Source: Eledone cirrhosa
Lineage: Eukaryota
Direction: 5' to 3'
Assembly: GCA_964016885.1 (NCBI GenBank)
Contig: OZ024743.1
Span: 307,458,001 to 307,522,000, forward strand
Length of the DNA stretch: 64,000 nucleotides
The translations under genes and the position numbers were made by a program. The notes under the pieces were generated by a model, which was not told the DNA's origin, made no database searches, and saw only the letters and a list, made by a program, of their open reading frames with translations. Below are positions 21,519 to 63,509 of the stretch, in pieces (the first letter of the stretch is position 1; each line of letters opens with the position of its first letter).

Positions 21519-22516
<998 letters not shown>

Positions 22517-22554
22517 TGTATATATATATATATATATATATAGATATATATATA

Positions 22555-29962: not shown

Positions 29963-30162
29963 GAAGGGCGGTGAATTGGCAGTATCGGTAGAGGGTCGGA
30001 CACCATGCTTTCCAGCATAGTTACGTCCCTTTACGGTCTGAGTTCAAATCCCGTCGAGGTTAACTTTGCCTTTCATCCTTAAGGGGTCGATAAAATAAAG
30101 TATCAGTAATGTACTGGGTAATTGCTGGCCTTGTGCCAAAAGTAGAAACAATTATTATTATT
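29963..30162 (+). mobile_element. SINE family S2, full length, starting in the ATT tail of the previous SINE
   Basis: GGCGGTGAATTGGCAG head, GAGTTCAAATCC B box, tail TGGCCTTGTGCCA...AGAAACA(ATT)4. Confidence 0.88.
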
Positions 30163-33100
30163 GAAGGTGAAGCCACGCTTCTTATCGGCTCCAGTTTTTT
30201 TTCAGCAGTATTCATCGATTTCAACCGTTCCTAACCTTTTATTCAAGTTTTAAACTTGATAAGAGTTTAGAAGAAGTGACCCACCTAATACAGGGGGTTC
30301 ACCCATAAATAATACGGCACCCCTTTATGGGGTATCGTATGATGTAAAATTTATTTGAAAAAAAAAAAGATTTCGTTCAAACATGGATAATACAAAAAAG
30401 AGAGAGAGCGCTGTCAGACAACTCAGAAAGAGGGAGACTTTGTCAACATATCAACAAGACAGCGTTCTACAAAAGAAAATACAAAAGAAAATATTACAGA
30501 GGAAAAGAAAAACAATATCATTTTTAATGATATTGTTTCAGATTTAAAAATACCAAATAGTACTAACACAAACAACACCAACAACAACAAAAATAACAGC
30601 AATAAGGTCGAGAAAGACAATAACAATGACAATAACAACAGCCACAACAACAATAACAGTAGGAACAGTATCAATGAAAACAACAATAACAACAACAGCC
30701 ACAACAACAGTACCAACGAAAACAACAACAATGACAACAATGACAACAATAGCAGCAGCAACAGTACCAACGAAAACAACAACAGTGACATCAATACCAG
30801 TAACAACGATCTCAACACCAACAACAAGACCAGTAGCAGCAGCAATAATGGTGCTGCTGAAAAAGGGGCCACTTCTTTTGCAGGTGTGGCCCGAAATATA
30901 GAAACAGTTCTTGTCACAGAGGAGGAGATGGCGGTCGCAAGGGCCATGGTGACGAGAAATGCCAATCGAGTCTTCCTGAAACCTCCACCCGATTTTTTCA
31001 AGGACCAGCAGTTAAGGACAGTGACTTACCGCACTGTAAGTAAAATATCGCATTGGGTGGAGAGAGCCACGGAGGCTCAAATTCAAAAGCCTTGGGGTGC
31101 GTCTGGGCGCGCAAAACCCACATCACCCGAGGCAAAACGTATGCCACAATAGACGTACATTTTGCCACTCCTCAAGAGGCGAAGGTAACCCTAAAGAGTA
31201 AAGAGATAGTCTTGGTGCTCTCCTACTACGGGCAGAAAATTGTGAGGATCAAAGTGACCCAGAGAATAGTACAGAGAATAGGGAGAGAGAACTGGTCAGG
31301 AGGTATATGTATGCAAATGCTAATACATACTGACCAGGAGTGTATCGAGCCTATCCTGGATATCATAAACCTCGAGGAAGGACTCCAACTCCCTATAAGC
31401 GTGGAAGCAAGGCGCCCAAAGTGCTATCTCTGTGTGTCAAAGGGTCACCTCAGGGCCTTTTGCCCGCAGAAGACAGCAAAGAAGAAGGACCTCCCCCTTC
31501 TTCTGATGCCTGGTCCGCTGCTACCAAAAGCAGGGCAGGCAACAAAGGCAGCAGACCCTTCTACTGTGAGTAGGAGGGCAACATCCGTGGCACCTATACC
31601 AAGGCCACAGACAACTAAAACAGCGGCAGCAGTGGCGGCAACACCAGTAGCTACATTTGCAGTAGCTGCACCAGCAACAAAATCGCCGGAGAGGGTTCCA
31701 CTACCACCACCACCAGCTGTGGAGCACATACCCCCTCCCAGAGGCCACGGAATCCGACATGGAGTGTGAGGCAGGAGTGAAGTGGCAAAAGGTCTGCCAC
31801 AAAAAACAAAAAACAAAAAACCCCTTAGCTTCACCCTCCAAAAGCGAAGGCAAACAAAGAGGGGTAAAGGCTGAAAAGCGACTTGCAGCAACGCCACCAC
31901 CACAAACACCAACGTAGTTGGAGACTTCAGAGGGTCAGTTACCAAGAGGATATACACCGACATCATCTTGGAGATACCAGCCAAAGGGACGGTTCAACTG
32001 TCCCTTTCCTACACGATCAGTGTAGGTGATCCTTTCTCACTTACTCACCCAACATGGCCTTACTTAGAATAGGCGGTATAAATGTATGTGGCCTGGGGTC
32101 ATCTTGGAAGCAGGGTCACCTGCTTAACGATCTCAGGTCACTAAACATAGATGTGGTGGCCATCAGCGAGACCAGAATTTCCGAAGCACGAGACTTTGCA
32201 CCGTTCTTCGGCAGCTACGATGCATACGCATCTCCCAGCCATCCGGGAGCAGGAGGCAGAGTTGCTGTGCTTTTTCGGGGAGGCTTGGATCTCGCCATAC
32301 GGGCCATCTTCCTGGACCCAGAAGGTAAGTTGGTGGTGCTGGACATGACAGGCAGCGAAGACAATGATTTTAGGCTAGTAGCCGTCTACTCCCCAACAGG
32401 GGCAGGACAACCAGATTTCTTCAGACGCCTAGAGACCTTTCTGGGAATATCCTGCTCTTTAGTCTTAGTGGGTGACTGGAACGGTATCTTAGATGCACGC
32501 TGGGATTATGTGGGGCTAGTAAATAAGGGAGGAGGATGTAAAAGCCTCACCAACCTGCTCAGACGTTTTCAACTATCAGACAGGTATCGACTGGATTATC
32601 CGAATGTGCCAATATGGACATGGGCAAACCACATCGGATCATACAGATCGTATCTAGATAGGGTATTCTGTAGGGAAACAGATAAGGCTAGCGTAGGTTG
32701 TCCACAATTTAAAGTAGTCGACTTAGATAGACTTCATAGGCAAGGACCCGGTTATTGGAAGCTGAACGCCTCTGTCCCGTTGCGCAAAGCTTACAGAGAC
32801 CGGATAAGCAAATTAGTTAAGCATGCGTTGACGGGTGCGATCGTCAACAACAGGTGGTGGTTTACCCTGAAAAGGGCAATTAGAGTAGAATCAATAAGGT
32901 TTAGCAAAAAGGAGTAGTGAGATAGAGGAAAATAGAGTAGAAGGAGAGCTAGTTAGAAAGCTAGAAGAGGTGTTTAGGACAGGCATCGCAACCGATGTGC
33001 TTGCGGCGAGATTAGCACTCGACCAATTCTTCAATGCAAAGCACGACGGCTGCGTTGTCAGAGCTAGAGCACGTGCTCTGAGACACGAGGGGACAAATGC

Positions 33101-33771
33101 TGTCCAATGTGCCCGGGTGGTGGAGGCAACAAAGCCACAATTCAATCCTTGCCTGACCAAAACGGGCGCATGCTACTCGAACCCGAGCAGATGTGTGACG
33201 CTTTTCAGCAGCACTTTGCTCAACTGTTTAGGAGCGGCGGCGGGCCAGATCGGAGTATGAACTTCAGTGCATACCTCGAGAGACTGCCGCGGCTCTCGAC
33301 GACCGCAGCGCAGTATTACAAAAGGCCAATAATAGCAGGTGAAATACAGGAAGCGATGTCTGGCTGCAAGAAGGGTAAATCGCCAGGTTTGGATGGTCTG
33401 CCCTACAAGCTTTATGCGTCCATGCCAGACTTGTTCGGCGACCTCTTGGCAAATGTCTACTGCAACTGGCAGCAGAACGGGAGCATTCCCAGTTTTGTGA
33501 GCCGGAAAGCGGTGGTGCTGTTGAGAAAAGACCCGAACAAGGGGGATGTTATAGACAACTTCAGGCCCATAACTCTGTTAAACGAAAATTTCAAGATTTT
33601 AGCCAAGGTGTTAGCAACAAGATTGGCGCTTGTCATCGGTGATCTGATGGGAGAGGCGCAGACATGCGCCTTTCCAGACAGATCCATCCACGACAACCTC
33701 CACCTTATGTGATACATCATAGAGAGCGTGGTTAAGGAACCTGGCACGGGTGGGGCCCTGATCAACTTGGA

Positions 33772-33832
33772 TCATCATCATCATCATCATCATCTTCGTT
33801 TAACGTCGATCTTACACACTAGCATGGGTTAG
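33772..33832 (-). mobile_element. Short RTE-type 3' tail inserted in Tx1 RT
   Basis: (CAT)n...GTTTAACGTC...CTAGCATGGGTTAG replaces the SKAFDRV codons. Confidence 0.7.
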
Positions 33833-34507
33833 TCGGTACCTGGCGGCCGCCGCTTTCAGGCCCATTTTCAGGGGTTGTATCGCTGAGATGCACAGCAACA
33901 TCTGCTCAGTTGTGAAGGTGAATGCGCTCGGTCCACGAGGGTTGTCCCCTCTCGTCGCTCTTGTACGCATTGGCCCTAGAGTCGTTACTGCACAAATTGG
34001 AGGTGATGAGAGGCATCCCACAAGAACTAATATGTGGGAGATCCATATCGGCTTACGCCAACGATGTCACCGTGGTGGTGTCAAGCACCGGGCATGTCCA
34101 GATGCTCGGCACCACTCTCAAGGAATATGAAGCAGAAACAGGAGCAAAGTTAAACCAGGAAAAGTCGGTGGGTTTGCAGCTCGGCACCTGGAGAGGCAAG
34201 TCCATGCTGCCAGACAGCGTCGTGGGGCACTGAATGGAAGGACCGGTTAAATTGCTCGGGGTCTGGTTTGGTCCAGACCTCCAAATGGAGAAAATCTGGA
34301 GTGAGATGATGAGCAGGGTGGCCTCTCTCACCCAGAAATGGACCGAGAGGACGCTGTCCCTGAAAGGTCGAGCAGAGATGGTGAATGCGTTCATCGCATC
34401 CGTCAACTGCTACCGCCTAATTGTTGTGCCTTGCCCCGGCCCAACTCTGACAACAATGGAGCGCCTCCTCTTCCGCTGTTTATGGAAGGAACGTGCTCCC
34501 ATGGTGA

Positions 34508-37500
34508 TGTGGGGCTGTGTGGAGGAGGTGACCGGAAGCTGGGGACGCTTGATCGGAGGCGGAGGAGGAGTGACGTCAGGTGCGGCGTCTGTAGGCTGCG
34601 TCTCTCTCGGTGACTTGGTGAAAGACGGATGTACCAGATGAAGCTGCAGCTTGGTGAATGGATTATAACACGGAGATTGATGCACGGCTTTGAGTGAACC
34701 AGCAGACTCGCGGTAAGTGGAATAGCTTTCTCACCACAAGCTATTTCGACACATAAAGACGTACAAAAAGGGGGGCACAAAGCTACTTGAAAACAAAGAC
34801 TATCTTGTTTTATTACTTACCGCAGGAGTAAAGAGATGGCGACAAGATTACGGTTGAGCGGAGAAGTACTTAAAGCTTTCACCGGTGAAGGAGACGTTAT
34901 CGTTTGGATGCGAAAGGTCCGGGTGGTCACCGAGCTACAAAAGATAGATGATGTGGCCAATCTCATGCCGCTATATCTCGAGGGGGATGCGCTAGCATTG
35001 TACCTTGAGATGGACGAAATCAGCCAGAGGGACGCGCAAAAAAATTGAGCGGCGTATGATGGAAGCGTTTGCGGAAGGTCCGTGTACCGCGTTTGCCAAG
35101 CTGGCAAGGATAAGGTGGGAAGGTCAGCGTGTGGATATTTTTGCTGCGGAGATAAGGAGATTGGCCATGCTGGCTGGGTTTCAGGTTGAGTGCGAGTGTG
35201 CAGTGTGGCTGGCATTTATAAATGGTTTTCCGAATGACATCGCGGTGAGACTGCAGCAAATACCTGGCTACAAGGAAATGGAGATGCATACATTGGTAGA
35301 GCAAGCCCGCATCATAGCGGAAGATGCTAAGAAGAGTGTTGCAGCAATAGTGGCGATGGAGGCCCGGGGCAGCCGACAGCGAAATGCTGAAAGGTGACAA
35401 ACACGGCGAACAGTCACCCGCACATGTTTAGGGGTCGTTGCTATAGGTGCCAGGGTGCGCACATGGAGAGAGATTGCAAGGAGTCGAAACCAGACATAAT
35501 TTGCTATGGTGTAGGCAGCTGGGCCACATCGCTACCAAGTGTGACCAGGGAAACGGTACAAGGGGGGCTATTGCGACGGTAGCTACCCCTCGAGTGTAGA
35601 GGCACTGCCTGTGGTGAAAATCCTGGTGAAGGGAAAGCCATTACGAGCCCTCGTGGACACGGGATGTACAATGACACTGGTGACTACGGGGGTGGTGGAA
35701 AAGTGGAGAGGGAAGAGCATCATAAGGGCAGTCGACGGTAGGAAGATTGAAGGTAGAGGTTGCAGCGATGTGGAGATGGTGGTAAGGGGAAAGAGAATTA
35801 GGCTTTCAGCCATTGTGGTCGACTGCGTAGTGGATGGAATTGACGTGGTTATGGGCATGGACGTGATTGGCCGATTAGGAGGCGTCACAGTGAACGATGT
35901 CGGAGTAACATTTGTTGGCGCTGCACCAGCATGCGCTGTGAGTACGTGTCAGGAGGGCGAGAAGGCCCGCGAGGAAAAATATGCCGCTCATACCGTACAG
36001 GATAAGGACTTCAAGGCCGTGTTCGACGGGCAACAATGGATTATTGAGTGGTACTGGAAGGGAGAATCGCCAATACTGAAGAACAAAGTGGGCTGCTATC
36101 AGCACACATTGAAAGGAGATGCTAGGAGAGAGTTTGAGCGAGAGGTAGAGAGATGGATCGAGGAAGGCATACTGGTTCCTTGGAAGGAGGTGAAGTGTGG
36201 GGTGTTGCTGTTAATGGCTGTGGTGCAACCCACGAAGAACAGGGTGAGACCAGTGTTGGATTTTCGGGAGCTGAACGAACATGTGTCGTGTCACACGGGT
36301 GGTGAGGTCATGGATGTCTGCGGGGAAACTCTGCGCGAGTGGAGACGTATGACGGGGGCTACACGTGGAGGACAAGCTGTGGCAGTATCAGCTTGCCAGG
36401 TATAAGGGCCGGACATATTGTCTGACCAGGCTCGGTTTCGGGCTGAACTCTGCACCGGAGATCATGGCGGCGGTCCTCAAGACCGTTCTGGGAAAGGCCG
36501 ACAAGATGAAGAAGGCCACCAATTCCTGCATCGACGCCATCTTAGTGGACGAGACTATAGTGTCGGCGGCGGAGGTCACAAGCCATTTGCGAGGATACGG
36601 ATTGACTGCGAAGCCGTCAGAGGCGTTGGAGGGAGGGAGGAGCCGTGCTGGGACTTAGGCTGTGAAGAGATAAGACGGGCACGTTAGTATTTCGGAGGGG
36701 AAATGAAGTCCCGGCACTGGGCCCAAATATGAATAGACGGGAGCTCTTCTCAGTGTGTGCAAAATTAGTGGGTCACTGGGTGGCTCCGGACGGCATGCAG
36801 CTATGTCAAGAGACAAGCGACGGGGTGACTTGGAGTGACAAGGTGGGAGAGAGGAAAATGGCCATGATGCAGGAGATCGTGGGGAGGGTGAAGGCCGATG
36901 ACCCAGTGCGAGGTCGCTGGTATGTCCCCGAATCGCATGCGGGACCATATGGTGTGATGCCAGCAGCGTAGCGTTAGGTGTCACACTAGAAATAGGAGGT
37001 GTCGAGGTCGAGGATGCAGCCTGGCTCAGGAAGAAGGATGATTGTAACCACATCAATGTGGCCGAGCTGGATGCTGTGTTGAGAGGGGTGAACCTCGCCT
37101 TGAGATGGGGACTGGGCACCATCGAGATTCACACCAACTCGGCGACTGCACTCGGATGGGTGTGGTCAGTGCTTACCAGTGAAAAGAGAGGGGCGGCAGA
37201 AATGCTGATAAAGCGCCGCCTGGGAACTCTAGGAGAGCTGGCCACTGAGTTCGGCCTGAAGTTGAGTGTAGTCTGAGAGAAAAATTGAGCAGACGTTTTA
37301 ACCAGGGTGAAGAAAGCTTGGATGGAAGCGCCAGAGGATGCAGAAGAGGGGATAGCTGCTGTGTGTCGGCTGAGTGAGTCAGACCTTAAAGGGTTGCATG
37401 CCATGCACCACATGGGAGTGCATAGGACCCTGTTCCTGGCCAGCAGAATCGATTCCGATGTTAGCAGAGACAGTGTCCAGAGAGTGGTCAGAGGCTGCGT

Positions 37501-38581
37501 CCGATGTCAGTCTATCGATCCCGCCCCGGGTGTGCACGAGTCGGGATGTCTCCCAGTGGATCGCAACTGGAAGCGATTAGCAGTGGATGTAACACACTAC
37601 CGACAAGGAACATATCTCTCGATAGTTGATTGTGGACCGGGACGGATGGCGATATGCAGGGAAATGAAGATGGGATCTGCGGAGGAAATCACACGGACTT
37701 TGAGAGAGATATTCTTGGAGCGGAGCCCTGTGGATGAACTGCTGATGGATATTAGCGCAGTGTTCCGCTCAGAGGCGCTGAGGGAAATGCTTCATGGGTG
37801 GAAGGTGGACCGCTTCTTCAGAGCAGCATACAGGCCGAGCGGAAATGGGATCGTGGGGCGACACCACCGCACAATCAAAGCAATGGCGGAACGGGGGCAC
37901 ATCTCACCAATGTAAGCAGTGTTTTGGTACATGTCCCCTCGGGTGGAACAGGCTGAGGAATCGGTGCCACACAGAGCGATATACAAATATGAGTGGCGGC
38001 ACTCGTGCACGGTACCTCAACGGCCAGTAGAGAGAGAGAGCGCATTCATACAGGTGGGCGAGGAAGTCTGGGTTAAGCTCCCAGACGCATGCTGCACATC
38101 TCAATGGGGAAAGGGAACAGTAACGGCCATAAATTCCCAGAATAACGTGTCTGTGGACGGAGTGCCACGTCATGTCCTGGATGTCCGTAGAATCGTTGTG
38201 TTGACGGACTCCAAGGAAGAGGAAATCGAAAGCGCTGCCCCAACATTACGGATATCGTAACGGGATCCCCAACTGCCTGGGTGGACGGCAGATTATCACA
38301 CGCAGCAGTGTGAGGGAGAGATTGATCCTTGAGATCAGAGGGGCATGTGGGGCAGTGTGGAGGAGGTGACCGGAAGCTGGGGACACTTGACCGGAGGCGG
38401 AGGAGGAGTGACATCAGATGCGTTACCAAGGCGGCGTCTGTAGGCTGCGTCTCTCGCGGTGACTTGGTGAAAGATGGACATACCAGACGAAGCCGCAGCT
38501 TGGCAAATGGATTATGACACGAAGATTGATGCACGGCTTTGAGTGCAGACTCGCGGTAAGTGGAATAGCTTTCTCACCACA
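34508..38581 (+). mobile_element. Compact Ty3/Gypsy LTR retrotransposon, full length but decayed; LTRs 34508-34738 and 38346-38581
   Basis: TG...CA LTRs; 5-bp TSD GGTGA (34503-34507 / 38582-38586); gag with zinc knuckle, protease LVDTGC, RT, RNase H (DAS, AELDA), integrase HHCC-DDE in Gypsy order; purine tract before the 3' LTR. Confidence 0.93.
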
Positions 38582-39579
38582 GGTGAGATGATCCATCTGC
38601 TGTCAGCACCCGTTGCGTGGAGGAGTGGGCATGCCATGGCTGATGATGCGCAAACATGCGCTAAGGCTGCGACATCTCTGGTGCTTCCTTGACGGTGAAC
38701 AGGTGTGGTCGCCATTTGTCAGGCGTGTTTTACCCCAGCTCGTCTCATTAACGGAGCTGCAGTCCTGGATCAGGAAAAGACCAAAAGATAGCGCTTGGAA
38801 GCTGGAATGTCTCCAAGTGTTCACAGCCTTCTACCAGCTGGGCACTAGTATTGGTGGAACATTCACCTCGGCATTCTATAGAGAACTAGTGGAGGGGGAA
38901 GAGTGACAACGTTCTCAGGGAGACCCTGGGCGTAGGAGTCAATCAGCTGTTCGCTCTCTTCAAGAGAACTTTCAATCCGGGGCATATGGACAACTTCCAG
39001 AAATCCCTGGCCTGGCAGTGCTACTGGGGAGCATTGCCGGTTCAAGATAAGCTCTACAGGGTGACAAAACCGTTGTGCACGCACTCGTACAGTGTCTGAT
39101 CGTTGCTGACTTGTGGGGCTATGTTGAACATTTTCTGTCACATGTAGGACGGATCCGGTTATCAACTGAGTCCATTGTGCAGATAGCCACACTGTCCTCC
39201 TTTAAGGAGCAGGAAGGGCAGGTAGTTTTCATCTGCCTGGTGGCCATGACGAAAGAGATTGTATGGTGGACAAGGTTGAAAGGATTGAAGACGGACACTT
39301 TCCTCTTCGGCGAATCCCTGATTAACTTTTTCAAATTTCACTTGAAGAAGAAAAAAGGGTGGAGAGGCAAGTGCTACCTTCTAGTAAGTTTGTTGAATGG
39401 TGGGTGAAAGTGGAGAATCTAGCTCGAGTGAACGAGCCTGTTCTGAGTATGCGCCTGTAGACTGAGGAGCGGGAGAACTGAAAGAGGGGGCTTGCCCTGG
39501 TGGTCAGGGTGGCTGTGGTCTTTTGTGTGGTTTTCACCACAAGTGAACCTCGGAGGTTTCCACTTTTTGGGGAATTTTT

Positions 39580-40682
39580 GATCTGTGTGATTGACTTAGA
39601 TAGGCTTCATAGACAGGCACTCGGCTACTGGAAGCTAAACGCGTCGTTAACAGTGTGCAAAGCCTACAGAGACCGGATTAGCGAATTAGTTAAGCAGGCG
39701 TTGACGGGGCCCATCGTCAACAACAAATGGTGGTTTGCCTTGAAAAGAGTGATTAAAATAGAGTGCATTAGGTTTAGTAAGGCATTAGCAATAGAGAAAA
39801 ATAGAGCAGAGGGAGAACTAGTTAGCAAATTAGACGAGGCGCTTAATAAAGGCATCGCGACCAACGTGCTTGTGGCGAAATTGGCCCTCGACCAATTTTT
39901 CAATGCAAAGCACGAAGGCTGCGTTGTCAGAGCTAGGGCATTTGCTCTCAGACATGAGAGGACGAAAGCCGTTCGATGGGCTCGAGTGATGGAGGCGCGT
40001 CATGGCACAATCTGGTCTTTGGCGGTCCACGACGGGCGCATGCTACTCAGGCTTTTCAGCGACGCTTCACTAAGCTATTCGGAGGCGGCGGCAGTCCGGG
40101 TCGCGGGATGGACTTTAGTGCCTACCTCAACGGACTGCCGTGACTCTCAGCCACTGAAGTACGGGAGGCAATGACTGGCTGCACAATGGGCAAATCGCCT
40201 AGTTTGGATGGTCTGCCCTACAAACTTTACATACATATGCCAGACTTGTTCCGAGACCTTTTGGCGGACGTCTACTGCAACTGGCAGCAGAATGGAAGAA
40301 TTCCCAGCTCTGTAAGCCGAGAAGCAGTGGCACTGCTGAGAAAGGATCCGAACAAGGGGGATAACATAGACAACTTCAGGCCCATAACTCTGTTAAACAC
40401 AGAGTTCAATATTTTGGCCAAGGTGCTAGCAAAGAGGTTGGCACTTGTCGTCGGTGGTCAGGTGGGAGAGGCGTAGACATGCGCCATTCCAGACAGATCC
40501 ATCCATGACAACCTCCACCTCAAGCGATACATCGTGGAGAGGGTAGCTAGGGAACCTGGCAATTTAGATCAGTCGAAAGCTTTCGATAGGGTTGACCATC
40601 ATTATCTGGCGGCAGTCCTGAGGGCGGCTGGCTTTGGGCCTGTCTTCAGAGGCTGGATCACTGCCATGCACAGCGACATCTG
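39580..40682 (+). mobile_element. Tx1-like copy 2, internal ORF2 fragment (APE end to mid RT)
   Basis: Highly similar to 60050-61230; fused to the 3'UTR of copy 1. Confidence 0.85.
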
Positions 40683-40797
40683 CACTGTGGCTGATTGGGT
40701 AGAGAACTGGATTCGCAATCGTGAGCTTGTCAGTTCGATTCCTGGACCGGGCGATGCATTATGTCCTTGAGAAAGACACTATATTTCACATTGCTCC
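40683..40797 (+). mobile_element. tRNA-derived SINE head (S1-related)
   Basis: GTGGCTGATTGG A box, AGTTCGATTCC B box, TCCTTGAGAAAGACACT core. Confidence 0.75.
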
Positions 40798-40956
40798 TAC
40801 CTGGAATTGCAACAGATAGATAGTATTAGCAATTGGAAAGACCAACGGAAATATTGGTTCCTTGGTCCGATTTGAGGAAAGTCGATCAACAAAAAAAAAT
40901 ATATATATATGTCATCATCATCACCACCATTTATAATATATATATATATATATACA

Positions 40957-41077
40957 CTGTTCATTTTCCTGACATTTGAACATTATTCTATGTATATACG
41001 TGCACCTTTGATGAGTTGTAGTGCACCTGAGCACTGTACACAATAATTTCATTATTATTATTATTATTATTATTATT
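40957..41077 (+). mobile_element. 3' end of another retroelement with (ATT)9 tail
   Basis: GTGCACCTGAGCACTGTACACAATAATTTC(ATT)n; family not assignable from this window. Confidence 0.45.
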
Positions 41078-51857: not shown

Positions 51858-54800
51858 GTATCAACGAAAACAACAACAACAGTATCAACGAAAACAACAA
51901 CAACAACAGTTTCAACGAAAACAACAACAACAACAACTGTACCAACGAAAACATCAACAATGACATCGATACCTGTAACAGCGATCTCAGCACCACCAGC
52001 AAGACCGGTAGCGGCAACAATAGTGGTGCTGCTGAAAAAGGGGCCACTTCTTTTGCAGGTGTCACCCGAAATATCGAAACAGTGTTAGTCACAGAGGAGG
52101 AGATGGCGGTCGCAAGAGCCATGGTGACAAGAAGCACCAATAGAGTCTCCCTCAAACCTCCACTCGATTTTTTTCAAGGACCAGCAGCTACGGACGGTGA
52201 CTTACCGCATCGTAAGCAAAATCTCACATCAGGTGGAGAGAGCCACGGAGGCTCAAATCCAAAAGACCTTGGGGTGCGTCTGGGCACGCAAAACCCACAT
52301 CACCCGAGGCAGAAGGTACGCCACAGTAGACGTACTTTTCGCCACCCCCCAAGAAGTGAAGTCTCACTCTTTGGAAACCCTAAAGAGTGAGGAGATAGTC
52401 TTGGTGCCCTCCTACTGCGGGCAGAAAATTGTGAGGGTCAAAGTGACCCAGGTCCCACCCGACGTGCCCATACCTTAGCTGGCCACGTCTGTCCTTGCTG
52501 GAATCGAGGACAGGACGACCATGCTGCAAGTAGAGAAAATAGGGAGAGAGAACTAGGCAGGTATAGGCATGCAAATGCTTATACAAACTGACCAGGAATG
52601 TATCGACGCTATTCCCGATAACTTAGACATCGAGAAAGGACTCCAACTCCTTATAAGTGTAGAAAGAAGACGGCCAAAATGTTATCTCTGTGGGTCAAAG
52701 GGTCACCTCAAGGCCTTTTGCCCCCAGAAGACAGCGAAGAAGAAGGTCCCTCTCCTTCCAATACCTGGTCCGCTGCTACCAAGAGCAGGGCAGGCAACAA
52801 ACGCAGAAGCCCCTTCCACGGTGAGTAGGAGGGCAACGTCCGTGGCTCCCGTACCAAGGCCACGGACAACTAAAGCAGCAGCATCTGTGGCGGCAACACC
52901 AGTAGCTACATTTGCAGTAGTTGCACCAGGAACAAAATTGTCGGAGAGGGCTCTACTACCACAACCAACAGCCGTGGAGCATATACCCCTCCCAAACGCC
53001 ACGAAATCCGACATGGAGTTTGAGGCGGGAGTGAAGTGGCAAACGGTCTGCCACAAAATACAAAAAAGAAAAAACCCCTTAGATTCACCCTCCAAAAGCG
53101 AAGGCACACAAAGACGGGTAAAGACTGCAAGAAAACTTGCAGCAACACCACCACCCTCACCATCACAAGCACCACTGACAACAACAACCACACCACCAAA
53201 AACACCAACAACGCAAACAAAACACACACACCAAACAGCAACAAGAAGAAAACAGCAACAAAATCACCCCTCCCCACAAAAGGTACACAGCCATAAATAT
53301 GGCAAATAAAGATCTCATACAATATATAAAGCAGCACACAGACATCACAGAAAAAAACTACTACACCCCACCAACACCAAGAACTCTCCCGACAAACATA
53401 AGCATCATTGATGTCAAAATAGAACAGTACAAACTTTTAAAACAAAAATTCCCCAACGCGGTTGGGGACTTCAGAGGGTCGGTTACCAAGAGTATATACA
53501 CTGACATCCTCTTGGAAACACCCATGACCAGCCAAAGGGACGGTTCTACTGTCCCTGCACCACACGATCAAGGTAAGTGACCCTTTCTCACATCCAACAT
53601 GGCCGTACTCAGAATAGGCAGTATAAATGCACGTGGCCTGGGGTCATCTTGGAAGTAGGGTCACCTGCTCAACGACATCAGGTCACTAAACTAGATGTGG
53701 TGGCCATCAGCGAGACCAGAATCTTCGAAGCACGAGCCTTCGTACCGATCTTCGGCGGCTACGATGTATACGCATCTCCCCACCGTCCAGGATTGGGGGA
53801 GGGGTTGCCGCCCTTTTTCAGAGAGGCTTGGATCTCGCCTTACGGGCCATCTTCCTAGACCCAGAAGGTAAGTCGGTGGTGCTGGAGGTGACCGGCACCG
53901 AAGGCAACGCTTTCAAGCTAGTAGCCGTCTATGCCCCGACAGGGACAGGAAGCCCAGATTTCTTTAAACGTCTAGAGACCTTTCTTGGAACGTCCCGCTC
54001 TTTAGTGTTAGTGGGCGACTGGAACGGTATCTTGGATGCACGCTGGGATTGTGTGAGGCTAGTGGATAGGGGAGGAGGGTGAAAGAACCTCACCAATCTG
54101 CTCAGACGTTTTGAACTGTCTGACAGGTATCGACTGGATCACCCGAATGTGCCAATGTGGACATGGATAAACCGCATCGGGTCATCCAGATCGTATCTCG
54201 AGAGGGTATTCTGCAGAGAACTAGATAAGGCTAGTATAAGTTGTCCACAATTTAAAATAGTCGACTACACAGACCACAAATTTGTGATCTGTGAGATCGA
54301 CATAGACAGACTTCATAGACAAGGGCCCAGTTACTGGAAGCTGAACGCGTCTTTCCCGGTGCGCAAAGCCTACAGAGACCGGATTAGCGTATTAGTTAAG
54401 CGGCCGTTGACGGGAGCAGTCGTCAACAACAGGTGGTGTTCCGCCCTGAAAAGGGCAATTAAAGTAGAGTCGATTAGGTTTAGAAAAGGACTAGTGATAG
54501 AGGAAAATAGAGTAGAGGGAGAGCTAGTCAGAAAGCTAGAAGAGGCGTTAAGGACAGGCATCGCAACCAACGTGCTTGCGGCGAGATTGGCACTCGACCG
54601 ATTCTTCAACGCAAAACACGAAGGCAGCATTGTCAGAGCTAGAGCGCGTGCTCTGAAACACGAGGGGAGAAAAACCGTCCAATGGGCCCGGGTGGCAGAG
54701 ACGCGATGTGGAAATAAAGCCACAATTCGGTCTTTATCTGACCAAAACGGGCACATGTTGCTCGAACCCGAGCAGATGTGTGAAGTTTTTTAGCAGCACT

Positions 54801-57383
54801 TTGCTGAACTGTTCGGGAGCAGCGGCAGGCTGGATCAGGGTATGGACTTCAGTGCATACCTCGACGGACTGCCTCGGCTCTCGACGACCGCAGAATAGTG
54901 TTGCGAAAAGCCAATAACAGCCAGAGAAATACGGGAAGCGATGGCTAACTGCACAAGGGGTAAATCGCCAGGTTTGGATGGTCTGCCCTACGAGCTTTAT
55001 GCATTTATGCCAGACTTGTTCGGTGACCTCTTAGCAGACGTCTACTGCAACTGACAGCTGAACGGGAGCATTCCCAGTTTCGGGAGCCGGGGAGCAGTGG
55101 CGCTGCTGAGAAAACACCCGAACAAGGGGGATGTTATCGATAACTTCAGGCCCATAACCCTGCTAAACGCAGAGTTCAAGATTTTGGCCAAGGTGTTAGC
55201 AACGAGGTTGGCGTTTGACGTCAAGGGTCTGGTGAGAGAGGTGCAGACATGAGCAATTCCGGACAGATCCTTACATGACAACCTCCACCTCATGCGATAC
55301 ATCATAGAGAGGGTGGTTAAGGAACCTGGCATGGGTGGGGCCCTGATCAACTTGGATCATGCGATGTACAGCGACATCTGCTCAGTTGTGAGGGTGAACG
55401 GTCACCATGCCGTTCAGCATCATGCGCTCAGTCCGCCAGGGTTGTCCCCTCTCGTCCCTCTTGTACATAGTCCCTCTTGTACATATTGGGGGCGATGAGG
55501 GGCGTCCCACGCGAACTAGGATGCGGGAAATCCGAGTCGGCTTACGCCGACGACGTCACCGTGGTGGTGTCGACCACCAGACACGTCCAGATGCTCGGCA
55601 CCTCTCTCAAGGAATACGAAACGGTGACAGGAGCAAAGATAAACCAGGAAAAGTCGGTGGGCTTGCAGCTCGGCACCTGGAGAGGAGAGTCCATGCCGTC
55701 CGACAGCGTCGTGGGGCGTTGGACGGACGGACCGGGTAAATTGCTCGGGGTCTGGTTCGGACCGAACCTCCGGATGGAGAAAAACTGGAGCGAGGTGACG
55801 AGCAAGGTGGCCTCGCTCACTCAGAAACGGGCCGAGAGGTAGCTGTCCCTGAAAGGCCGGGCGGAGGTGGCGAATGCGTACACCGCATCCATCATCTGCT
55901 ACCGCCTCACCGTCGTCCCTTTCCTCGGCCCAACTCTCACCAAAATGGAGCGCCTTCCTTTCCGCTTTTTGTGGAAGGGACGCGCTCCCATGTTCAGACG
56001 ATCTATCTGCTGTCAACACCTGTTGCGTGGAGGACTGGGCATGCCATGGCTGATGATGCACAAACATGCGCTGAGGCTGCGACATCCCTGGTGCTTCCTT
56101 GACGGTGAACAGGTGTAGTCGCCGTTCGCCAGGCATGTTTTCCCACAGCTCGTCTCCTTGACGGAGCTGCAGTCCTGGGTTAGGAAAAGACTGAGGGATA
56201 GCGCTTGGAAACTAGAATGTCTCCAGGCGCTCACTGCCCTCTGCCAGCTGGGCACCAGTATCGGTGGAACATCTACCTCAGCGTTCTAGTGGAGGGGAAG
56301 AGTGACGACGTCTCGGAGATTTTCTGGGCGTCAAAGAAGATCTCTCTTCCGGAGAACTTTCAACCCAGGGCCTATGGATAACTTCCAAAAATCCCTGGCC
56401 TGGCAGTGCTACTGGGGAGCGTTGCCGGTTCGAGATAAGCTCTACAGACACGGAAGTGCCGTCAGCCGCGCCTGTCCGAGATGCGCGCAGAGCGACGAAA
56501 CCATCGTGCACGCACTCGTTCAGTGTCCGAGCATTGCTGACTTGTGGAACTATGTCGAACAGTTGCTGTCGCGTGTAGGACTGATCCGGTTATCGACTGA
56601 GTCCATTGTGCAGATGGTCTCGCCATCTTCCTTCGAGGAGGAAGGGCAGGTGGTTTTCATCTGCCTGGTGGCCATGGCAAAAGAGATTGTGTGGTGGACA
56701 AGGTTGAAAGGGGTAAAGACAGATAGTTTACTCTTCGGCGAATCCCTAATTAACTTTTTCAAGTTTCACTTGAAGAGGAAAATCAGGGTGGAAAGGCAAG
56801 TGTTGAAAGGTGGGTGAATGTAGCGAGAATGGTCCAAGTGAACGGGACCACTCTGTATATATGCCTGTAGTTTGAGAAAGGGAAAAATTGAGAGAGGGCG
56901 CTTGCTCTGGTGGTCAGGGTGGCCGTGGTCTTTTGTGTGGTTTTCGCCATGACTAACCCTCAGAGGTTTCCCCCCCTATTGGGGAATTTTTTATTGTTTC
57001 AATTTTCATTTTTATTGTTTATATATATATATATGTTTCTATGTCTTTTTTTTCTTTTCTTATATAAATAATAAAAATCCTTACATGCACAAAACCCACA
57101 TCGTACCGTCCTGTGCCGTCTGTAATGTTTTTCTTGGTGTCAGCCCTTGTGATTATTATTATTATTATTATAGGCGACCTACGTAGTAAATCGTATCATC
57201 GTGAGCTCCGCAAAGGTTTGTTATTTCCGTTTGTTAAAAATTGCCATTTATGGAAAACTTTTATTGTTAACTATATATAAGCGCACATACATTGTTTTCC
57301 GAAAAGGACACCCAAAAAGATTGGGGCCTTGTGCCCAAAATTTAAAGTTTTATGATTATCAAAAAATTTCTTTGAAAAAAAAA

Positions 57384-59328
57384 ATGGCTAATTCACCACT
57401 GCACCAAGCAGCTGAAAGCCTTTCTCACAAATTAACACCTCACACCGACACCACCATTGTAAATGATTATACGTCTTCCAACACAAACAATTTAAGCACT
57501 AGCAATATTTTAAATTTGTCTCAGGCAGACATTCATTTCACGCCATTACCAATGACTGCAGGTGTTAAAGCCGCCACCACCACCACCACCCCCACCACCA
57601 CCGCGACAACAGAAACAAAAGGAAAAAATAAATCAACTCGTGATGTCGAAATATTTTCAACCAAAATGGACTCTCCCAAACCGACTTTCACTAACGTCAC
57701 CACCACCACAACTGAAACTAAAATTAATAATAACAAAAATAACGATAGCAACAACAACAATGACATTAAAAAAACCACCCTGAGTTTTGCCAGAGTAGCA
57801 AAACAGTTCGAAGCATTTACGGTAACTCAGGAGGATTTAGAAAATGCCAAACAAATGGTAAAGAAAGATGGGTACAGGGTCAGCCTCACCCCCCCCCCCC
57901 CACCTAATAAAATGGAGCATCGGCGCCTATGCACCATGTCGTATCGAACAATAAATGTAAAATCGTGCTAAGTGGAACGGGCATCCGAGTCCCAAATCCA
58001 AAAAGCTTTGGGACGTGTGGGCAAGAAAAACCCACATCAGACGTGGGCAGAAGTATGGAACCGTGGACGTGTTCTTTGAAACACCAGAGGAGGCTAGAGA
58101 ACACTCCATGGCCCCATTAAGAAGTGACGACTTCACACTCGTCCCAAGCTATTGTGGCCAGAGACTCGTAAAGATCAGGGTGACCCACATTCCACCGGCC
58201 ATCGAAATTCCCTGGCTAATAGCGGCCGTCCTCGCCGGCATCGAAGCCAACACAAAGATAATAGCAATAGCAAAAGAAAAGCAGGAGAACTGGTCCGGAT
58301 CTGGGATGGAGCTCCTGATCCAAGCGGACCAAAAAAGCATTGAGGAGATCCCAGAGGTAATAGACCTCACTGACGGCAGCCACCTCACCATAATTGTCGA
58401 GGGCAGAAGGCCTGTGTGTGTCGTTTGTGGTGAAGGAACCCACCTAAGGGCTTTCTGCCCTCAGGCTAAAAGGTTGAGGCCACCTCTCCTACCCACCCCA
58501 GTGACACAACCATCAACACCACCAGTAGCAGAGATGGCAGCAACAACTGTAGCAGCAACAACAGAAGCAACTATAACAGCAACAACCCCAGCAACAGTAG
58601 CAAAACCAACACCACCACCACCACCACCCAACGCTTCAGAACTAGCACCAGCGCCTACACCTTCCACCACACCACAACCAAAACTAACGCCTGTGGAGGA
58701 TTTTCCACTCCCCGGCCTATCACAACTGGAGACAGATTGTGACGACGAGGAGTGGGAAACAGTATCAGGGAAAAAAAAAAAAAAAAAAAAAAATTCTCTT
58801 CCTTCCCCCTCCAAAAACAAAATACAGAGGGAAACAAATAAATTAACAAACAAAAAAGTTAGGACAGAGATGCCACCATCCACACCAGCATCACCAACCC
58901 CATCAACCCAAACACCAACACCATCACCATCATTAACCCCAACACCACCATCACCTACACCACAAAAGTCACCAAAATGCGAAACAGAAACAAACCCACA
59001 ACAAACGCAAACAAAACAAAACAACCAAAACGATACACACTACACAGCATTAAATTTGAACAAGCAATTATTACACTACATCCAACACAACACCAGCATC
59101 ACAGAAAAAGACTACACAACAACCCAAAAATTCACACCACCTCCACACATACAAATCACTCGCATCACACAGAAAACGTACATGACACTAAAACAAAAAT
59201 TCCCCAAAGACATCGGAGACTTCCAACAAGCACTCTCCAGGAGGATTTATAAGGACATCCTTCCTGAGGAGGCCACAAGCAGTGAAAAGGATGGAAAAAC
59301 CGTCCTTCCCCTACGAGAAGTAAGGTAA
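57384..59328 (+). pseudogene. Tx1 ORF1 (RRM-like region, CCHC knuckle, Pro/Thr-rich linker), one frameshift ~57955
   Basis: ORFs 57201-57971 and 58015-59328; SFARVA, KYGTVDVFF, CVVCGEGTHLRAFC. Confidence 0.85.
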
Positions 59329-59362
59329 GTGGTCTTTCCCATCTTTTCCACTCCTTTTCAAC

Positions 59363-62300
59363 ATGACCTCACTCAGAATAGGCAGCATAAATGCGCGTGG
59401 CTTGGGGTCGTCATGGAAGCAGGGCCACCTGCTCAACGACCTCAGGTCACTAAACATAGATGTAGTGGCCATCAGCGAGACCAGAATCTCCGAAACACGG
59501 GCCTTCGCACCGATCTTCGGCGGCTACGATGTGTACGCATCTCCCAGCCGTCCGGGATCGGGGGGAGGAGTTGCTGTGCTTTTTCGGAGAGGTTTGGATC
59601 TTGCCATACGGGCCATCTTCCTGGACCCAGAAGGTAAGTTGGTGGTGCTGGACGTGACCAGCGGAGAAGGGCAAGCTTTCAGGTTAGTGGCTGTCTATGC
59701 CCCGACAGGAGCAGGGCGGCCTGATTTCTTCCGGCGTCTGGAGACCTTTCTTGGAACGTCCCGCTCTTTAGTGTTAGTGGGCGACTGGAACGGGATCTTA
59801 GATGCACGCTGGGATTGTGTGGGATTAGTGAATAGGGAAGGAGGGTGCAAGAGTCTCACCAACCTGCTCAGGCGTTTTGAACTGTCTGACAGGTACCGAA
59901 TGGATTTCCCGAATGTACCAATGTGGACTTGGACAAATCGCATAGGGTCATCCAGATCATATCTAGATAGAGTATTTTGTAGGGAAATAAATAGGTCTAG
60001 CATAGGCTGTCCACAATTCAAGATAGTCAGCTACACAGACCACAAATTCGTGATCTGTGTGCTTGACTTAGATAGGCTTCACAGACGAGGACCCGGCTAC
60101 TGGAAGCTAAACGCGTCCTTACCAGCGCGCAAGGCCTACAGAGACCGGATTAGCGAACTAGTTAAGCGGGCGTTGACGGGGGCCATCGTCAACAACAAGT
60201 GGTGGTTTGCTCTGAAAAGAGCAATTAGAATAGAGTCCATTAGGTTTAGTAAGGCTTTAGCAATAGAGAAAAATAGAGCAGAAGAATTAGTTAGAAAATT
60301 AGACGAGGCGCTTAGCAAAGGCATCGCGACCAATGTACTTGCGGCGAAATTGGCCCTTGACCAATTCTTCAATGCAAAGTACGAAGGCTGCGTTGTCAGA
60401 GCTTGGGTGCGTGCTCTCAGACACGAGGGGACGAAAGCCGTTCAATGGGCCCGAGTGGCGGAGGCGCGTCGTGACAATAAAGCCACGATCTGGTCTTTGG
60501 TGGACCACGACGGGTGCATGCTACTCGATCCCGGGCAAATGTGTGAAGCTTTTCAGCGACACTTCGCTCAACTGTTCGGGGGCAGTGGCGGGCCGGATCG
60601 AGGGATGGACTTTAGTGTCTACCTCGACGGACTGCCGCGGCTTTCGGCCACTGAGGCGGAGTGTTGTGAAAATCCGTTTAACAACCACTGAAGTACGGGA
60701 GGCAATGACTGGCTGCACAAGGGGTAAATCGCCTGGTTTAGATGGTCTGCCCTATGAACTTTACGTACAAATGCCAGACTTGTTCGGAAGCCTCTTGGCG
60801 GACGTCTACTACAACTGGCAACAGAACGGGAGAATTCCCAGCTCTGTGAGCCGAGGAGCGGTGGCGCTGCTGAGAAAGGATCCGAACAAGGGGGATAACA
60901 TAGATAATTTTAGGCCCATAACTCTGCTAAACACAGAGTTCAAGATTTTGGCCAAGGTGCTAGCAAAGAGGTTGGCGCTTGTCGTTGGTGGTCTGGTGGG
61001 AGAGGCAGACATGCGCCATTCCTGACAGATCCATCCACGACAACCTCCACCTCATGCGATACATCGTAGAGAGGGTAGCTAGGGAACCTGGCACGGGTGG
61101 GTCTTTGATCAATTTAGATCAGTCGAAAGCCTTCGATAGGGTCGACCATCGTTACCTAGCAGCAGTCCTGAGGGCGGCTGGCTTTGGGCCCGTCTTCAGA
61201 GGCTGGATCGCTGCCATGCACAGCGACATCTGCTCTGTAGTGAGAGTGAACGGTCACCTTTCGGAACCGTTCAACATCATGCGCTCGGTCCGCCAAGGAT
61301 GTCCCCTCTCGTCCCTATTGACTCTCGAGCCATTACTGCACAAACTGGAGACGTTGAGGGAGGTCCCGCGCGAACTAGGATGCGAAAGATCCGTGTCAGC
61401 ATATGCGGACGATGTCACCGTAGTGGTGTCGAACGCCAAACATATCGAGGCGATCGGCACTACACTCAGAGAATACGAAGCGGTGACAGGAGCAATGATC
61501 AACCAGGAAAAGTCAGTGGGCCTGCAGCTCGGCACCTGGAGAGGCAGGTCCACGCCGTCCAACAACGTCGTCGGGCGCTGGACGGACGGACCGGTTAAAT
61601 TGCTAGGGGTCTGGTTCGGTCCAGACCTCCAGACGGACAAAAACTGGGACGAGGTGACGAGCAGGGTGGCTTCTCTCACCCAGAAATGGGCCGAGAGGAA
61701 GCTATCCCTGAAAGGTCGAGTGGAGGTGGCTAACGCGTACATCGCGTCCGTCATCTACTACCGCCTGACCGTCGTACCTTGTCCTAAGCCCCGCCTGACT
61801 GTGCTGGAGTGTTTGCTCTTTCGCTTCTTGTGGAAGGGACGCGCTCCGATGGTCAGGCGGTCCATCTCCTGTCAACACCCGCTACGTGGAGGGCTGGGCA
61901 TGCCGTGGCTGATGATGCGCAGACACGTGCTCAGGCTACGACATCTACACCTCTTCCTCGACGGTGATCAGGTGTGGTCGCCGTTTGCTAGACACGTTTT
62001 TCCCCAGCTCGTCTCCTTGACGGAGCTGCAGTCCTGGGTCAAGCGAAGACCGAGAGGGAGCGCTTGGAGACTGGAATGTCTTCAGGCGCTCACAGCCCTC
62101 GACCAATCGGGCAATGTGATCGGTGGAAACTCCACCTTGGCGTTCTATAGGGGATTAGTGGAGGGTAAGAGCGACGACGTACTTGGAGAAACTCTAGGCG
62201 TCGATGAAAATCAACTAGCCAATCTCTTCGGAAGGACTTTCGGGCCGGGGCCTATGGACAACTTCCAGAAATCCCTGGCCTGGCAGTGCTACCGGGGTGC

Positions 62301-62767
62301 TTTGCCAGTTCGGGATAAACTCTACAGGCATGGAGGTGCCGTCAGCCGGGCATGTCCGAGATGCACACAGGGCGACGAAACCGTCCTGCACGCACTCGTC
62401 CAGTGTCCGAGCATTGCTGACTTGTGGGTTTATGTCAAACATCTGCTGTCACGTGTAGGACGGATCCTGCTATCAGCTGAGTCCATCGTGAGGATTGCCC
62501 CGCCCTCTTCCTTTAGCCGGGAAGGGCAGGCAGTTTTTATGTCTGGTGGCCATGGCGAAAGAGATAGTATGGTGGACACGTTTGAAAGGGCTGAAGACGA
62601 GCACTTACCTCTTCGGTGATGCCCTGATTAACTTTTTCAAATTTCATTTGAAAAGGAAAATCAGGGTAGAGAGGGAAGTGCTCTCTTCCCAGCATTTTGT
62701 TGAAAGATGGGTGAGATAAGCAAGTATGGCCCGAATGAATGGGCCTTCTCTGAGTATGTGTCTGTAA
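59363..62767 (+). pseudogene. Tx1 ORF2 (APE endonuclease, reverse transcriptase, C-terminal zinc finger), about 3 frameshifts
   Basis: SINARGL, AISET, VYAP, GDWN, SYLDR, YTDH; KSPGLDG, DQSKAFDRV, RQGCPLS, YADD; CPRC..DETVLHALVQC. Confidence 0.93.
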
Positions 62768-63509
62768 ATTAAAGGTGGAAAACTGAGAGAGGGCACTTGC
62801 CCTGGTGGTCAGGGTCACTGTGGTCTTTTAATGGGCTTTCTCCACAAGTCCCCCCCCTATTCGGGAATTTTTTCTTTGTTATTTTATTACATCCTCTGTT
62901 TTTTACACGCAGAAATGCCCATTTGTACCGTCCTGTATTGTCCTGTACTGTCCTTAATGTCTACTTTATGTAAACCCTTGTGGTTAATAAAGAAAGCATT
63001 ATTATTATTATATATATATATATATATATTATATATAGTAATAATAATAAATGTGAGGACTAAAATCCGAAGAGGGCCCGATAAGGAATATATATCAAAT
63101 ATATAAAAAACCATAGAGCAAATATTTATTAAAATAACAGATTAAAGTTTAACGGGATCTTCTGAAACTAAAAAAAAAAATCAATCTGTGGACACAAAAG
63201 TAAATATTTCGAAAAACGTTACAACCGAAGGAAAACAAGAAGACGATATTAATATATATATATTCCATCGGATGGAATGCTTTGAAAACGCAAAACATAT
63301 CTGAGGAACTTGTAAATGCAGAGTCAGGTTCAATCTGTAACAGATCCTGCCTTGAGCTGATCGACGGAGAAACATGTAATATGCTAATAAATTGTGTTTT
63401 GAGTTTTGATGCATTACTGATTCCTCGTTATCTATAATATGCACTGTTCTGCGCGAGCATCGAGTGCTCAAACGGCATACCGCCCACGGACGCTTTTAAT
63501 TGTAACCAT

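What the first reader, a model, noticed from the sequence alone, without database searches (positions are those of the whole stretch)
30126..63010. SINE S2 and the Tx1 elements share a terminal CUUGU stem-loop plus (ATT)n tail: candidate stringent SINE-LINE pair
Seen: Tx1 ends are TTGGCC-CTTGT-GGTTAA (49263-49279), AACC-CTTGT-GGTT (62973-62985) and GCC-CTTGT-GGC (45693-45703). The SINE end is TGGC-CTTGT-GCCA (30126-30138; also ~25603, ~29929 and ~7738). The 5-nt loop is invariant while the stems vary and still pair, and each is followed by an A-rich GAAA spacer and ATT units. Known: stem-loop plus short-repeat tails are the RT recognition signal of stringent L2/CR1 LINEs and their SINEs, whereas mammalian L1 uses poly(A). 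Inference: this L1-group element uses stringent 3' recognition and mobilises S2.
Basis: partly seen in the sequence, partly recalled or inferred. Interest (0 to 1): 0.8.

Follow-up and report, generated by a model that had tools for sequence, protein, structure and literature searches.

The report
Octopus SINE mimics Tx1 RNA end
A very abundant short parasitic repeat in this octopus-type genome ends in the same small hairpin, spacing and landing-site signature as one group of long jumping genes (Tx1), which likely copy it, a pairing by a shared RNA end rather than a poly(A) tail that is unusual for this class of element in animals.

Summary
Observation confirmed and extended genome-wide. The SINE (258,220 exact tail matches) and about 22,000 L1/Tx1-group LINE ends share one terminal module: a 3-4 bp stem closed by C-G, loop CTTGT, GAAA 10-11 nt after the loop, 2 nt, then the target. 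Stems covary across 16 family-level ends. Six other LINE ends sampled (two CR1, two RTE, Dong-R4, I/Nimb) do not match; an abundant ATT-tailed CR1 is excluded by footprint (0 of 21 long duplications, against 14 of 33 for the SINE). Corrections: the SINE's ATT 'tail' is mostly duplicated target DNA (11-21 bp, starting ATTAT); only three pairs are conserved; the loop is C-Y-N-G-T in sister Tx1 families that target TATCT. Tx1 copies carry AATAAA but no poly(A) (1 of 175). Tx1 as mobiliser: about 0.85. The hairpin as the required recognition signal is inferred, untested: about 0.6. Against: Tx1 sits in longer ATT runs than the SINE, and Tx1 duplications were not above background. Shared-tail pairs are a known kind; I found no animal L1/Tx1 pair with a shared structured tail in ten literature searches.

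The parts
29968..30150 (+). Full-length SINE S2 (A box 29977-29988, B box 30040-30052, hairpin 30126-30138, GAAA 30145-30148)
   Evidence: genome copies 95-97% alike
29954..29967 (+). 5' copy of the 14-bp target duplication of that SINE (3' copy 30154-30167); includes the first 5 nt of Tx1 A, so the SINE arrived after Tx1 A
29855..29953 (+). 5'-truncated SINE S2, hairpin 29929-29941
25441..25628 (+). SINE S2 with 17-bp target duplication (25421-25437 and 25629-25645); hairpin 25603-25615
7586..7762 (+). SINE S2, hairpin 7738-7750 with a G-T pair; no duplication seen
30163..40688 (+). Tx1 element A: ORF1 CCHC knuckle at 31422, APE endonuclease, interrupted by an LTR element, rearranged near 39572, no terminal hairpin left
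40952..41050 (+). 3' fragment of an ATT-tailed CR1 (different hairpin, GTGC-ACCTGA-GCAC); the main rival partner
41078..45716 (+). Tx1 element C; hairpin 45693-45703, AATAAA 45705-45710, GAAA 45711-45714, ATT run from 45717
45741..49290 (+). Tx1 element D (internally deleted); hairpin 49263-49279, GAAA 49285-49288, ATT run from 49291
49312..57151 (+). Tx1 element E; A-type 5' end, C-type 3' end that stops inside the hairpin; ATT run from 57152
57173..62997 (+). Tx1 element F, near full length (ORF1 knuckle 58417, APE, RT, zf-RVT); hairpin 62973-62985, AATAAA 62986-62991, GAAA 62992-62995, ATT run from 62998
57324..57336 (+). Second hairpin in the 5' UTR of F, GGGC-CTTGT-GCCC, same core as the SINE hairpin

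Best explanation
The SINE and the ATT-targeting Tx1 LINEs end in the same module (3-4 bp stem, CTTGT loop, GAAA 10-11 nt on, 2 nt, then ATTAT target), and the Tx1 ORF2 protein likely copies the SINE by binding that RNA hairpin rather than a poly(A) tail. Shown: shared module and spacing, covarying stem, ATTAT at the 3' junction of both, 11-21 bp duplications for the SINE, no poly(A) in either, no match among other LINE ends sampled. Inferred: the Tx1 endonuclease nicks the strand opposite ATTAT; ORF2p holds the hairpin and, as a ruler, places the AUUAU 16-17 nt past the loop on the nicked primer, so reverse transcription starts inside the transcript, upstream of any poly(A) or read-through; second-strand cleavage about 15-19 bp away gives the duplication. 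The SINE tail was probably captured from a Tx1 3' end: family D minus one stem pair gives the SINE's stem and spacing. Because each insertion leaves a new ATT end, SINE and Tx1 pile up head to tail, as in this window. Odds: Tx1 is the mobiliser about 0.85; the hairpin is the required signal about 0.6.
For: 96 of the first 100 listed genome matches have the 7-nt SINE spacer when 4-11 is allowed. 3'-anchored scores of two SINE tails: 19-33 against five Tx1 ends (z 2.8-5.9), -1 to 13 against six other LINE ends and one unclassified repeat (z at most 1.7). Inner three pairs hold in 16, 16 and 15 of 16 ends, with C-G/G-C and G-C/A-U swaps; covariation 0.35 against 0.136 shuffled, 0 of 500. In 128 SINE copies chosen by body, second alleles above 10% fall only outside stem, loop and GAAA. 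Duplications of 11 bp or more: SINE 14 of 33 (control 5 of 132), 12 starting exactly at the junction; CR1 0 of 21; ATT at the 5' junction SINE 20 of 33, Tx1 D 12 of 25, CR1 1 of 21. Nine near-full-length F copies have ATT on both sides. A run of 10 A within 60 nt: 1 of 175 Tx1, 0 of 218 SINE ends. Similar ages: median pairwise identity SINE 90.8, F 91.9, C 89.6, D 88.2%. No LINE hides among SINE-type tails: 207 of 219 have SINE body upstream, the other 12 have unrelated flanks. Internal control: a second SINE in the window shares its 3' end with RTE instead.
Against: The shared stretch is only about 27 nt and not identical: no Tx1 family has the SINE's G-C second pair. The stem is weak; two of three SINE ends and several Tx1 ends fold it with probability under 0.5 in isolation. 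Tx1 copies sit in longer ATT runs (median 8 units F, 5 D, 3.5 C) than the SINE (2). Tx1 duplications were not above background (5 of 25 against 22 of 100; 16 of 104 against 10); only about six unique-sequence cases of 14-19 bp were seen by eye (L099, L462, L038, L301, L321, L337). The 16 covariation rows are related, hand-picked, and the structure came from them. L2, Hero and R2 ends were not sampled. AATAAA beside the hairpin offers another reason for its conservation in Tx1. No RNA or assay data.
Confidence: 0.62

Rival explanations
1. Tx1 mobilises the SINE, but loosely: AUU pairing with the nicked target is what matters, and the hairpin is inherited baggage or serves 3' processing, stability or particle assembly.
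For: Stem only 3 bp and marginal; AATAAA next to it in Tx1; loop varies in TATCT families; a similar hairpin sits in Tx1 5' UTRs where it cannot prime; SINEU is assigned to Tx1-Mar with poly(A) and no shared tail (PMC4494074).
Against: The SINE has lost AATAAA yet keeps stem, loop, GAAA and spacer length across subfamilies; compensatory swaps; no poly(A) in copies.
Confidence: 0.23
2. The abundant young ATT-tailed CR1 mobilises the SINE, as CR1/L2 do for other Deu-type SINEs; likeness to Tx1 is convergence.
For: CR1 ends in a hairpin plus (ATT)n, has intact 945-aa frames and is young; known Deu-SINE partners are CR1/L2 types (PMC3747384 Table 1; PMC11481361).
Against: Tail scores 6-9, z under 1; 0 of 21 long duplications and 1 of 21 with ATT at the 5' junction, against 14 and 20 of 33.
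Confidence: 0.04
3. An unsampled or extinct LINE (L2, Hero, R2, an older Tx1-like family) is the true partner.
For: No sampled family has the SINE's exact stem; target-run lengths differ; only about 1.5 Mb of a 3.0-Gb genome was read.
Against: Genome-wide pattern searches aimed at such a family returned only SINE copies and Tx1 variants in the 30 loci examined of each; 219 of 219 SINE-type tails are SINE or lone truncated tails; Dong-R4 uses the same tracts in the opposite orientation.
Confidence: 0.08
4. The SINE hairpin comes from the Tx1 5' UTR hairpin or arose by chance, and has no bearing on 3' recognition.
For: The F 5' UTR hairpin (57324-57336) has the SINE's 11-nt core exactly, which no Tx1 3' end has.
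Against: The SINE hairpin lies at the 3'-end distance from GAAA and the target; the 5' UTR loop varies between and within families.
Confidence: 0.03

Closest known systems
Stringent L2 LINE-SINE pairs (ZfL2-1/ZfL2-2, UnaL2/UnaSINE; PMC4176376, abstract and Discussion read)
   Same: Short terminal stem-loop with conserved loop and exchangeable stem, shared by SINE and LINE.
   Different: Partner here is L1/Tx1 group; the repeat after the SINE is mostly target DNA; 11-21 bp duplications; binding not shown here.
SINEU and Tx1-Mar of crocodilians (PMC4494074, parts 1-4 of 5 read)
   Same: SINE assigned to a Tx1 partner by shared target preference; tandem insertions; microsatellite-targeting Tx1 (Kibi, Koshi, (TTCC)n groups) are described there.
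   Different: SINEU has an snRNA head and poly(A), and no LINE sharing its 3' end was found; here a tRNA-type SINE shares a structured non-poly(A) end.
Maize ZmSINE2/3 with LINE1-1_ZM, Chlamydomonas SINEX-3 with L1-1 (PMC3747384, passages and Table 1 read)
   Same: L1-clade LINE sharing a covarying 3' hairpin with a SINE; proposed stringent L1 lineage.
   Different: Plants and algae only in that table; longer shared tails; this case is animal, Tx1-like and microsatellite-targeting.
Mammalian L1 with Alu
   Same: APE endonuclease, long target duplication, RNA 3' end presumably pairing with the nicked target (general knowledge).
   Different: No poly(A); target ATTAT rather than TT/AAAA; shared structured tail.
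Octopus tRNA-Deu SINEs and L1-Tx1 in published repeat annotations (PMC8967140 passages; PMC13282606 part 1 of 3 and passages); octopus OK/OR1/OR2 SINEs (Ohshima and Okada 1994, seen only as a citation)
   Same: Probably the same SINE superfamily and LINE group; SINEs are the main octopus repeat expansion.
   Different: The passages read assign no partner LINE. I could not compare S2 with OK/OR1 sequences or with Repbase/Dfam entries.

Membership tests
L1 group non-LTR retrotransposon | ORF2 with APE endonuclease, RT and C-terminal zinc motif; RT groups with L1 | tested here: met
   Pfam Exo_endo_phos, RVT_1, zf-RVT; best solved match human L1 ORF2p E 3e-46 against R2 5e-22; apart from RTE and CR1 at 100/99
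Tx1 clade | RT inside the Tx1 clade against named references | tested here: inconclusive
   No named Tx1 sequence was available; tree places it in one group with U2-flanked Keno-like elements, about 30% identical; finer branching open
Tx1 clade | ORF1 with CCHC knuckle | tested here: met
   CX2CX4HX4C in four window elements; that this is typical of Tx1 is recalled
Tx1 clade | Target-sequence preference | tested here: met
   ATT on both sides of 9 F copies; ATTAT 121 and TATCT 28 of 175 junctions
tRNA-derived SINE | [quoted passage not shown] | tested here: met
   A/B-like boxes, about 185 nt, 258,220 tails, duplications; ARAGORN and Rfam found no tRNA, so the parent tRNA is unassigned
Deu / Nin-DC SINE superfamily | Central Deu or Nin-DC domain | not tested
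   Resemblance recalled from memory; no domain consensus was available in the tools
Stringent SINE-LINE pair | Shared 3' terminal sequence and stem-loop | tested here: met
   about 27 nt, not identical
Stringent SINE-LINE pair | Same insertion footprint (target, duplication length) | tested here: inconclusive
   Same ATTAT start and orientation; Tx1 duplication not above background, about six clear cases; run lengths differ
Stringent SINE-LINE pair | Element-encoded short terminal repeat as in L2/CR1 | tested here: not met
   12 of 14 SINE duplications start at the junction; the ATT is mostly target DNA
Stringent SINE-LINE pair | Hairpin required for retrotransposition and bound by ORF2p | not testable with these tools
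   Needs a mobilisation and binding assay

The most novel reading that the evidence does not exclude
An animal L1/Tx1 lineage uses a minimal hairpin as a ruler to start reverse transcription at a fixed distance inside its transcript, ignoring its own poly(A) signal, with loop variants tracking target class (ATT or TATCT) and a second copy of the hairpin in the 5' UTR; the dominant octopus SINE expansion was driven by mimicry of this 27-nt module. This would be a natural animal model of the stringent state proposed as ancestral to relaxed mammalian L1.
Probability: 0.45. Interest if true: 0.8.

Novelty: new variant of a known kind. Interest (0 to 1): 0.62.

Why it matters
It names a likely driver for one of the largest repeat expansions in octopus genomes, for which the papers read give no partner. 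It also makes an open question testable: whether relaxed poly(A) recognition in L1 arose from a stringent state. A 27-nt signal with natural stem swaps and loop variants across about ten families gives ready-made mutants, and solved human L1 ORF2p structures allow a direct comparison.

Tried and rejected
ARAGORN and Rfam on the window: nothing. Protein atlas and cluster look-ups gave no clade name. 80 distant metagenomic relatives (mostly 24-37% identical): no terminal module in any (25 of the 80 3' ends read), so the hairpin may be limited to this lineage; 3' UTRs of the 40-45% relatives could not be read. Free TSD searches were swamped by microsatellite background; crashed and were rerun. 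Pair and loop tallies were off by one and were redone; the per-column table stands. Sequencing runs: no RNA holder listed; laying three contig sets told nothing on RNA ends. Pfam RT search returned 30 loci of one CR1 family only. Dong-R4, RTE, I/Nimb and both CR1 ends rejected as partners. A repeated end with a broken second pair (11 of 30 loci) has identical flanks and is a passenger duplication, not a family. Tree omitted Dong-R4, I/Nimb (fragments under 150 aa) and one RTE (no hit). Earlier-findings look-ups returned nothing. The octopus genome paper PMC4795812 is not held. No supplements were read; repeat libraries there, Repbase and Dfam may already note this pairing.
Full report
Observation. 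All seven motifs are at the stated places. The window holds four copies of a roughly 185-nt SINE with A/B-like boxes and a head-to-tail array of five LINEs from 30163 to 62997, joined by ATT runs. The LINEs encode APE endonuclease, RT and zf-RVT and a CCHC knuckle in ORF1. The genome is 3.0 Gb; the one named relative of the ORF2 protein is from Argonauta hians, 68% identical, and falls in the same 100/99 clade, so I take the host to be an octopod. The RT is L1 group. Tx1 rather than another L1 branch rests on the knuckle, the microsatellite targets and U2-flanked Keno-like relatives; no named Tx1 reference was tested.

Genome-wide scale. Exact patterns give 181,854 and, more loosely, 258,220 SINE tails with no control matches, and 21,899 Tx1-type tails against 99. 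Of 30 Tx1-type tails examined, 17 had ORF2 homology within 1.5 kb and the rest were short or interrupted copies.

The shared module. Clustering 316 ends found by a loop-plus-GAAA search gave SINE clusters, Tx1 3'-end clusters, a few small clusters from inside Tx1 ORF2, and singletons. Loop to GAAA is 10 nt in 125 of 131 short-SINE ends, 12 of 14 long-SINE ends, 31 of 31 family F, 14 of 14 C, 16 of 16 and 11 of 11 in two TATCT families, 11 nt in 15 of 15 D, and 11-12 in three small TATCT families. Two bases follow, then the target. With 4-11 nt allowed, 96 of the first 100 listed genome matches have the 7-nt SINE spacer. Family D is four pairs plus 7 nt, the SINE three plus 7, so one deleted pair converts D into the SINE (inference). 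On 16 hand-picked family-level ends the inner three pairs hold in 16, 16 and 15 rows, the fourth in 9; swaps include C-G to G-C and G-C to A-U; covariation 0.35 against 0.136, 0 of 500 shuffles, and above all slid controls (an outer weak helix). These rows are related and the structure was read from them, so this is support, not proof. In 128 SINE copies chosen by body alone (150 hits, 22 without this tail), second alleles above 10% occur only outside stem, loop and GAAA; the loop is CTTGT in 100 and all three pairs hold in 93. Folding is marginal: the closing pair has probability 0.78, 0.41 and 0.06 in three SINE ends and 0-0.98 in Tx1 ends.

The loop is C-Y-N-G-T across all families; CTTGT marks the SINE, the ATT families and some TATCT families. 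The ATT after the SINE is mostly target: duplications of 11-21 bp were found at 14 of 33 mapped junctions (control 5 of 132), 12 starting exactly after GAAA-NN; a free search gave 76 of 194 against 9. At 29954/30154 the duplication includes the first 5 nt of Tx1 A, so that SINE inserted after the LINE.

Is another LINE closer? I recovered 3' ends of two RTE ((GAT)n), I/Nimb ((CAA)n), Dong-R4 ((TAA)n, landing in the same tracts in the opposite orientation) and two CR1 families (clade labels from my reading of RT motifs). 3'-anchored scores of two SINE tails were 19-33 for five Tx1 ends and -1 to 13 for the others. The serious rival is a young, intact CR1 with its own hairpin and (ATT)n. It has 0 of 21 long duplications and ATT at the 5' junction in 1 of 21, against 20 of 33 for the SINE and 12 of 25 for Tx1 D. 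Two genome-wide patterns built to catch a LINE with the SINE's stem gave 126 and 2,482 matches; the 30 loci examined of each were Tx1 point variants, one passenger duplication, SINE copies, lone tails or isolated matches. Of 219 SINE-type tails, 207 have SINE body upstream and 12 have unrelated flanks. L2, Hero and R2 were not sampled. As an internal control, a second SINE in the window shares its 3' part with RTE.

Results against. Tx1 lies in longer ATT runs (medians 8, 5, 3.5 units) than the SINE (2). Tx1 duplications were not above background (5 of 25 against 22 of 100; 16 of 104 against 10); about six unique-sequence cases of 14-19 bp were seen by eye. Nine of 11 near-full-length F copies have ATT on both sides; the other two lack the extreme 5' end. 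No Tx1 family has the SINE's second pair. One window Tx1 end stops inside the hairpin. The module is absent from 80 distant relatives.

Mechanism. Shown: module, spacing, target, SINE duplications, overlapping ages (median pairwise identity 88-92%), adjacency both ways (9 Tx1 tails followed by a SINE head, 2 SINE tails followed by a Tx1 start), and no poly(A) (1 of 175 Tx1, 0 of 218 SINE) although Tx1 carries AATAAA. Inferred: the Tx1 endonuclease nicks opposite ATTAT, ORF2p binds the hairpin and sets the AUUAU 16-17 nt past the loop on the primer, so synthesis starts inside the transcript. A short AUU end on the SINE RNA could explain its use of short sites (untested). Tx1 as mobiliser about 0.85; hairpin required about 0.6.

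Comparison and novelty. Shared-tail pairs with loop-specific recognition are established for L2 (PMC4176376). The 58-pair table of PMC3747384 lists L1-clade partners only for maize and Chlamydomonas. SINEU is linked to Tx1-Mar by target alone, with poly(A) and no shared tail (PMC4494074). Bivalve SINE partners are CR1, CR1-Zenon, L2 and Nimb (PMC11481361 passages; PMC4824008 passages). Octopus annotations name tRNA-Deu SINEs and L1-Tx1 without pairing them in the passages read. Also searched by passage without a relevant statement: PMC4758252, PMC5786205, PMC3531059. Ten searches showed no animal L1/Tx1-SINE pair with a shared structured tail; Repbase, Dfam, subscription papers and supplements were not seen. 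Verdict: a real feature, a new variant of a known kind, interest 0.62.

Noticed in passing
window 57324-57336, 41220-41270, 45884-45905; L056, L057, L043, L050 5' UTRs: Tx1 5' UTRs carry a GC-rich hairpin about 140-175 nt from the start that resembles the 3' module. With a matrix built from Tx1 3' ends it is the best non-terminal hit in families F, C and D, but not in A or I types. Second binding site or old duplicate.
   Followed up: partly
L096, L100, L105, L110, L301, L303, L313, L321, L337: Sister Tx1 families with the same module end in and target TATCT/(ATCT)n or (AT)n, with loop variants CCTGT, CTGGT, CTCGT and 16-19 bp duplications; they form one 100/99 branch. No SINE family with a TATCT end was seen.
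   Followed up: partly
window 34508-38581: LTR retrotransposon (aspartic protease and integrase hits) inserted in Tx1 A ORF2 with a 5-bp duplication.
   Followed up: no
window 49893-51857: Second insertion with 329-bp direct repeats 98.8% alike, in Tx1 E ORF1; probably a small LTR element.
   Followed up: no
window 49312-57151 versus 30163 and 41078-45716: 5' UTR/ORF1 types and 3' end types are mixed between elements (A-type 5' end with C-type 3' end), suggesting module exchange.
   Followed up: no
L041, L042, L045, L053, L119, L161: Dong-R4 3' ends lie tail to tail with Tx1 in the same ATT/TAA tracts, on the opposite strand.
   Followed up: partly
window 4715-5121 and 22143-22823: A second SINE family shares about 170 nt and a (GAT)n tail with an RTE LINE.
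   Followed up: partly
L279, L406, L150, L141, L122, L284, L283: An older SINE with a related core but a different pyrimidine-rich tail; partner unknown.
   Followed up: no
L376, L379, L392, L374; L102, L115, L120: Insertions of only 25-35 nt (hairpin plus spacer) of both SINE and Tx1 type; L376 has an 18-bp duplication.
   Followed up: partly
L187, L185, L192, L182, L186: Metagenomic relatives flanked by U2 snRNA pieces, Keno-like elements.
   Followed up: partly
window 13947-14993 (-), 23048-23698 (+): GIY-YIG frame and a PHD-like frame, probably Penelope-like elements.
   Followed up: no
window 6587-6916 and 8850-9179: 330-bp inverted repeat, 97.9% alike, enclosing the SINE copy at 7586; possibly a DNA transposon.
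   Followed up: no
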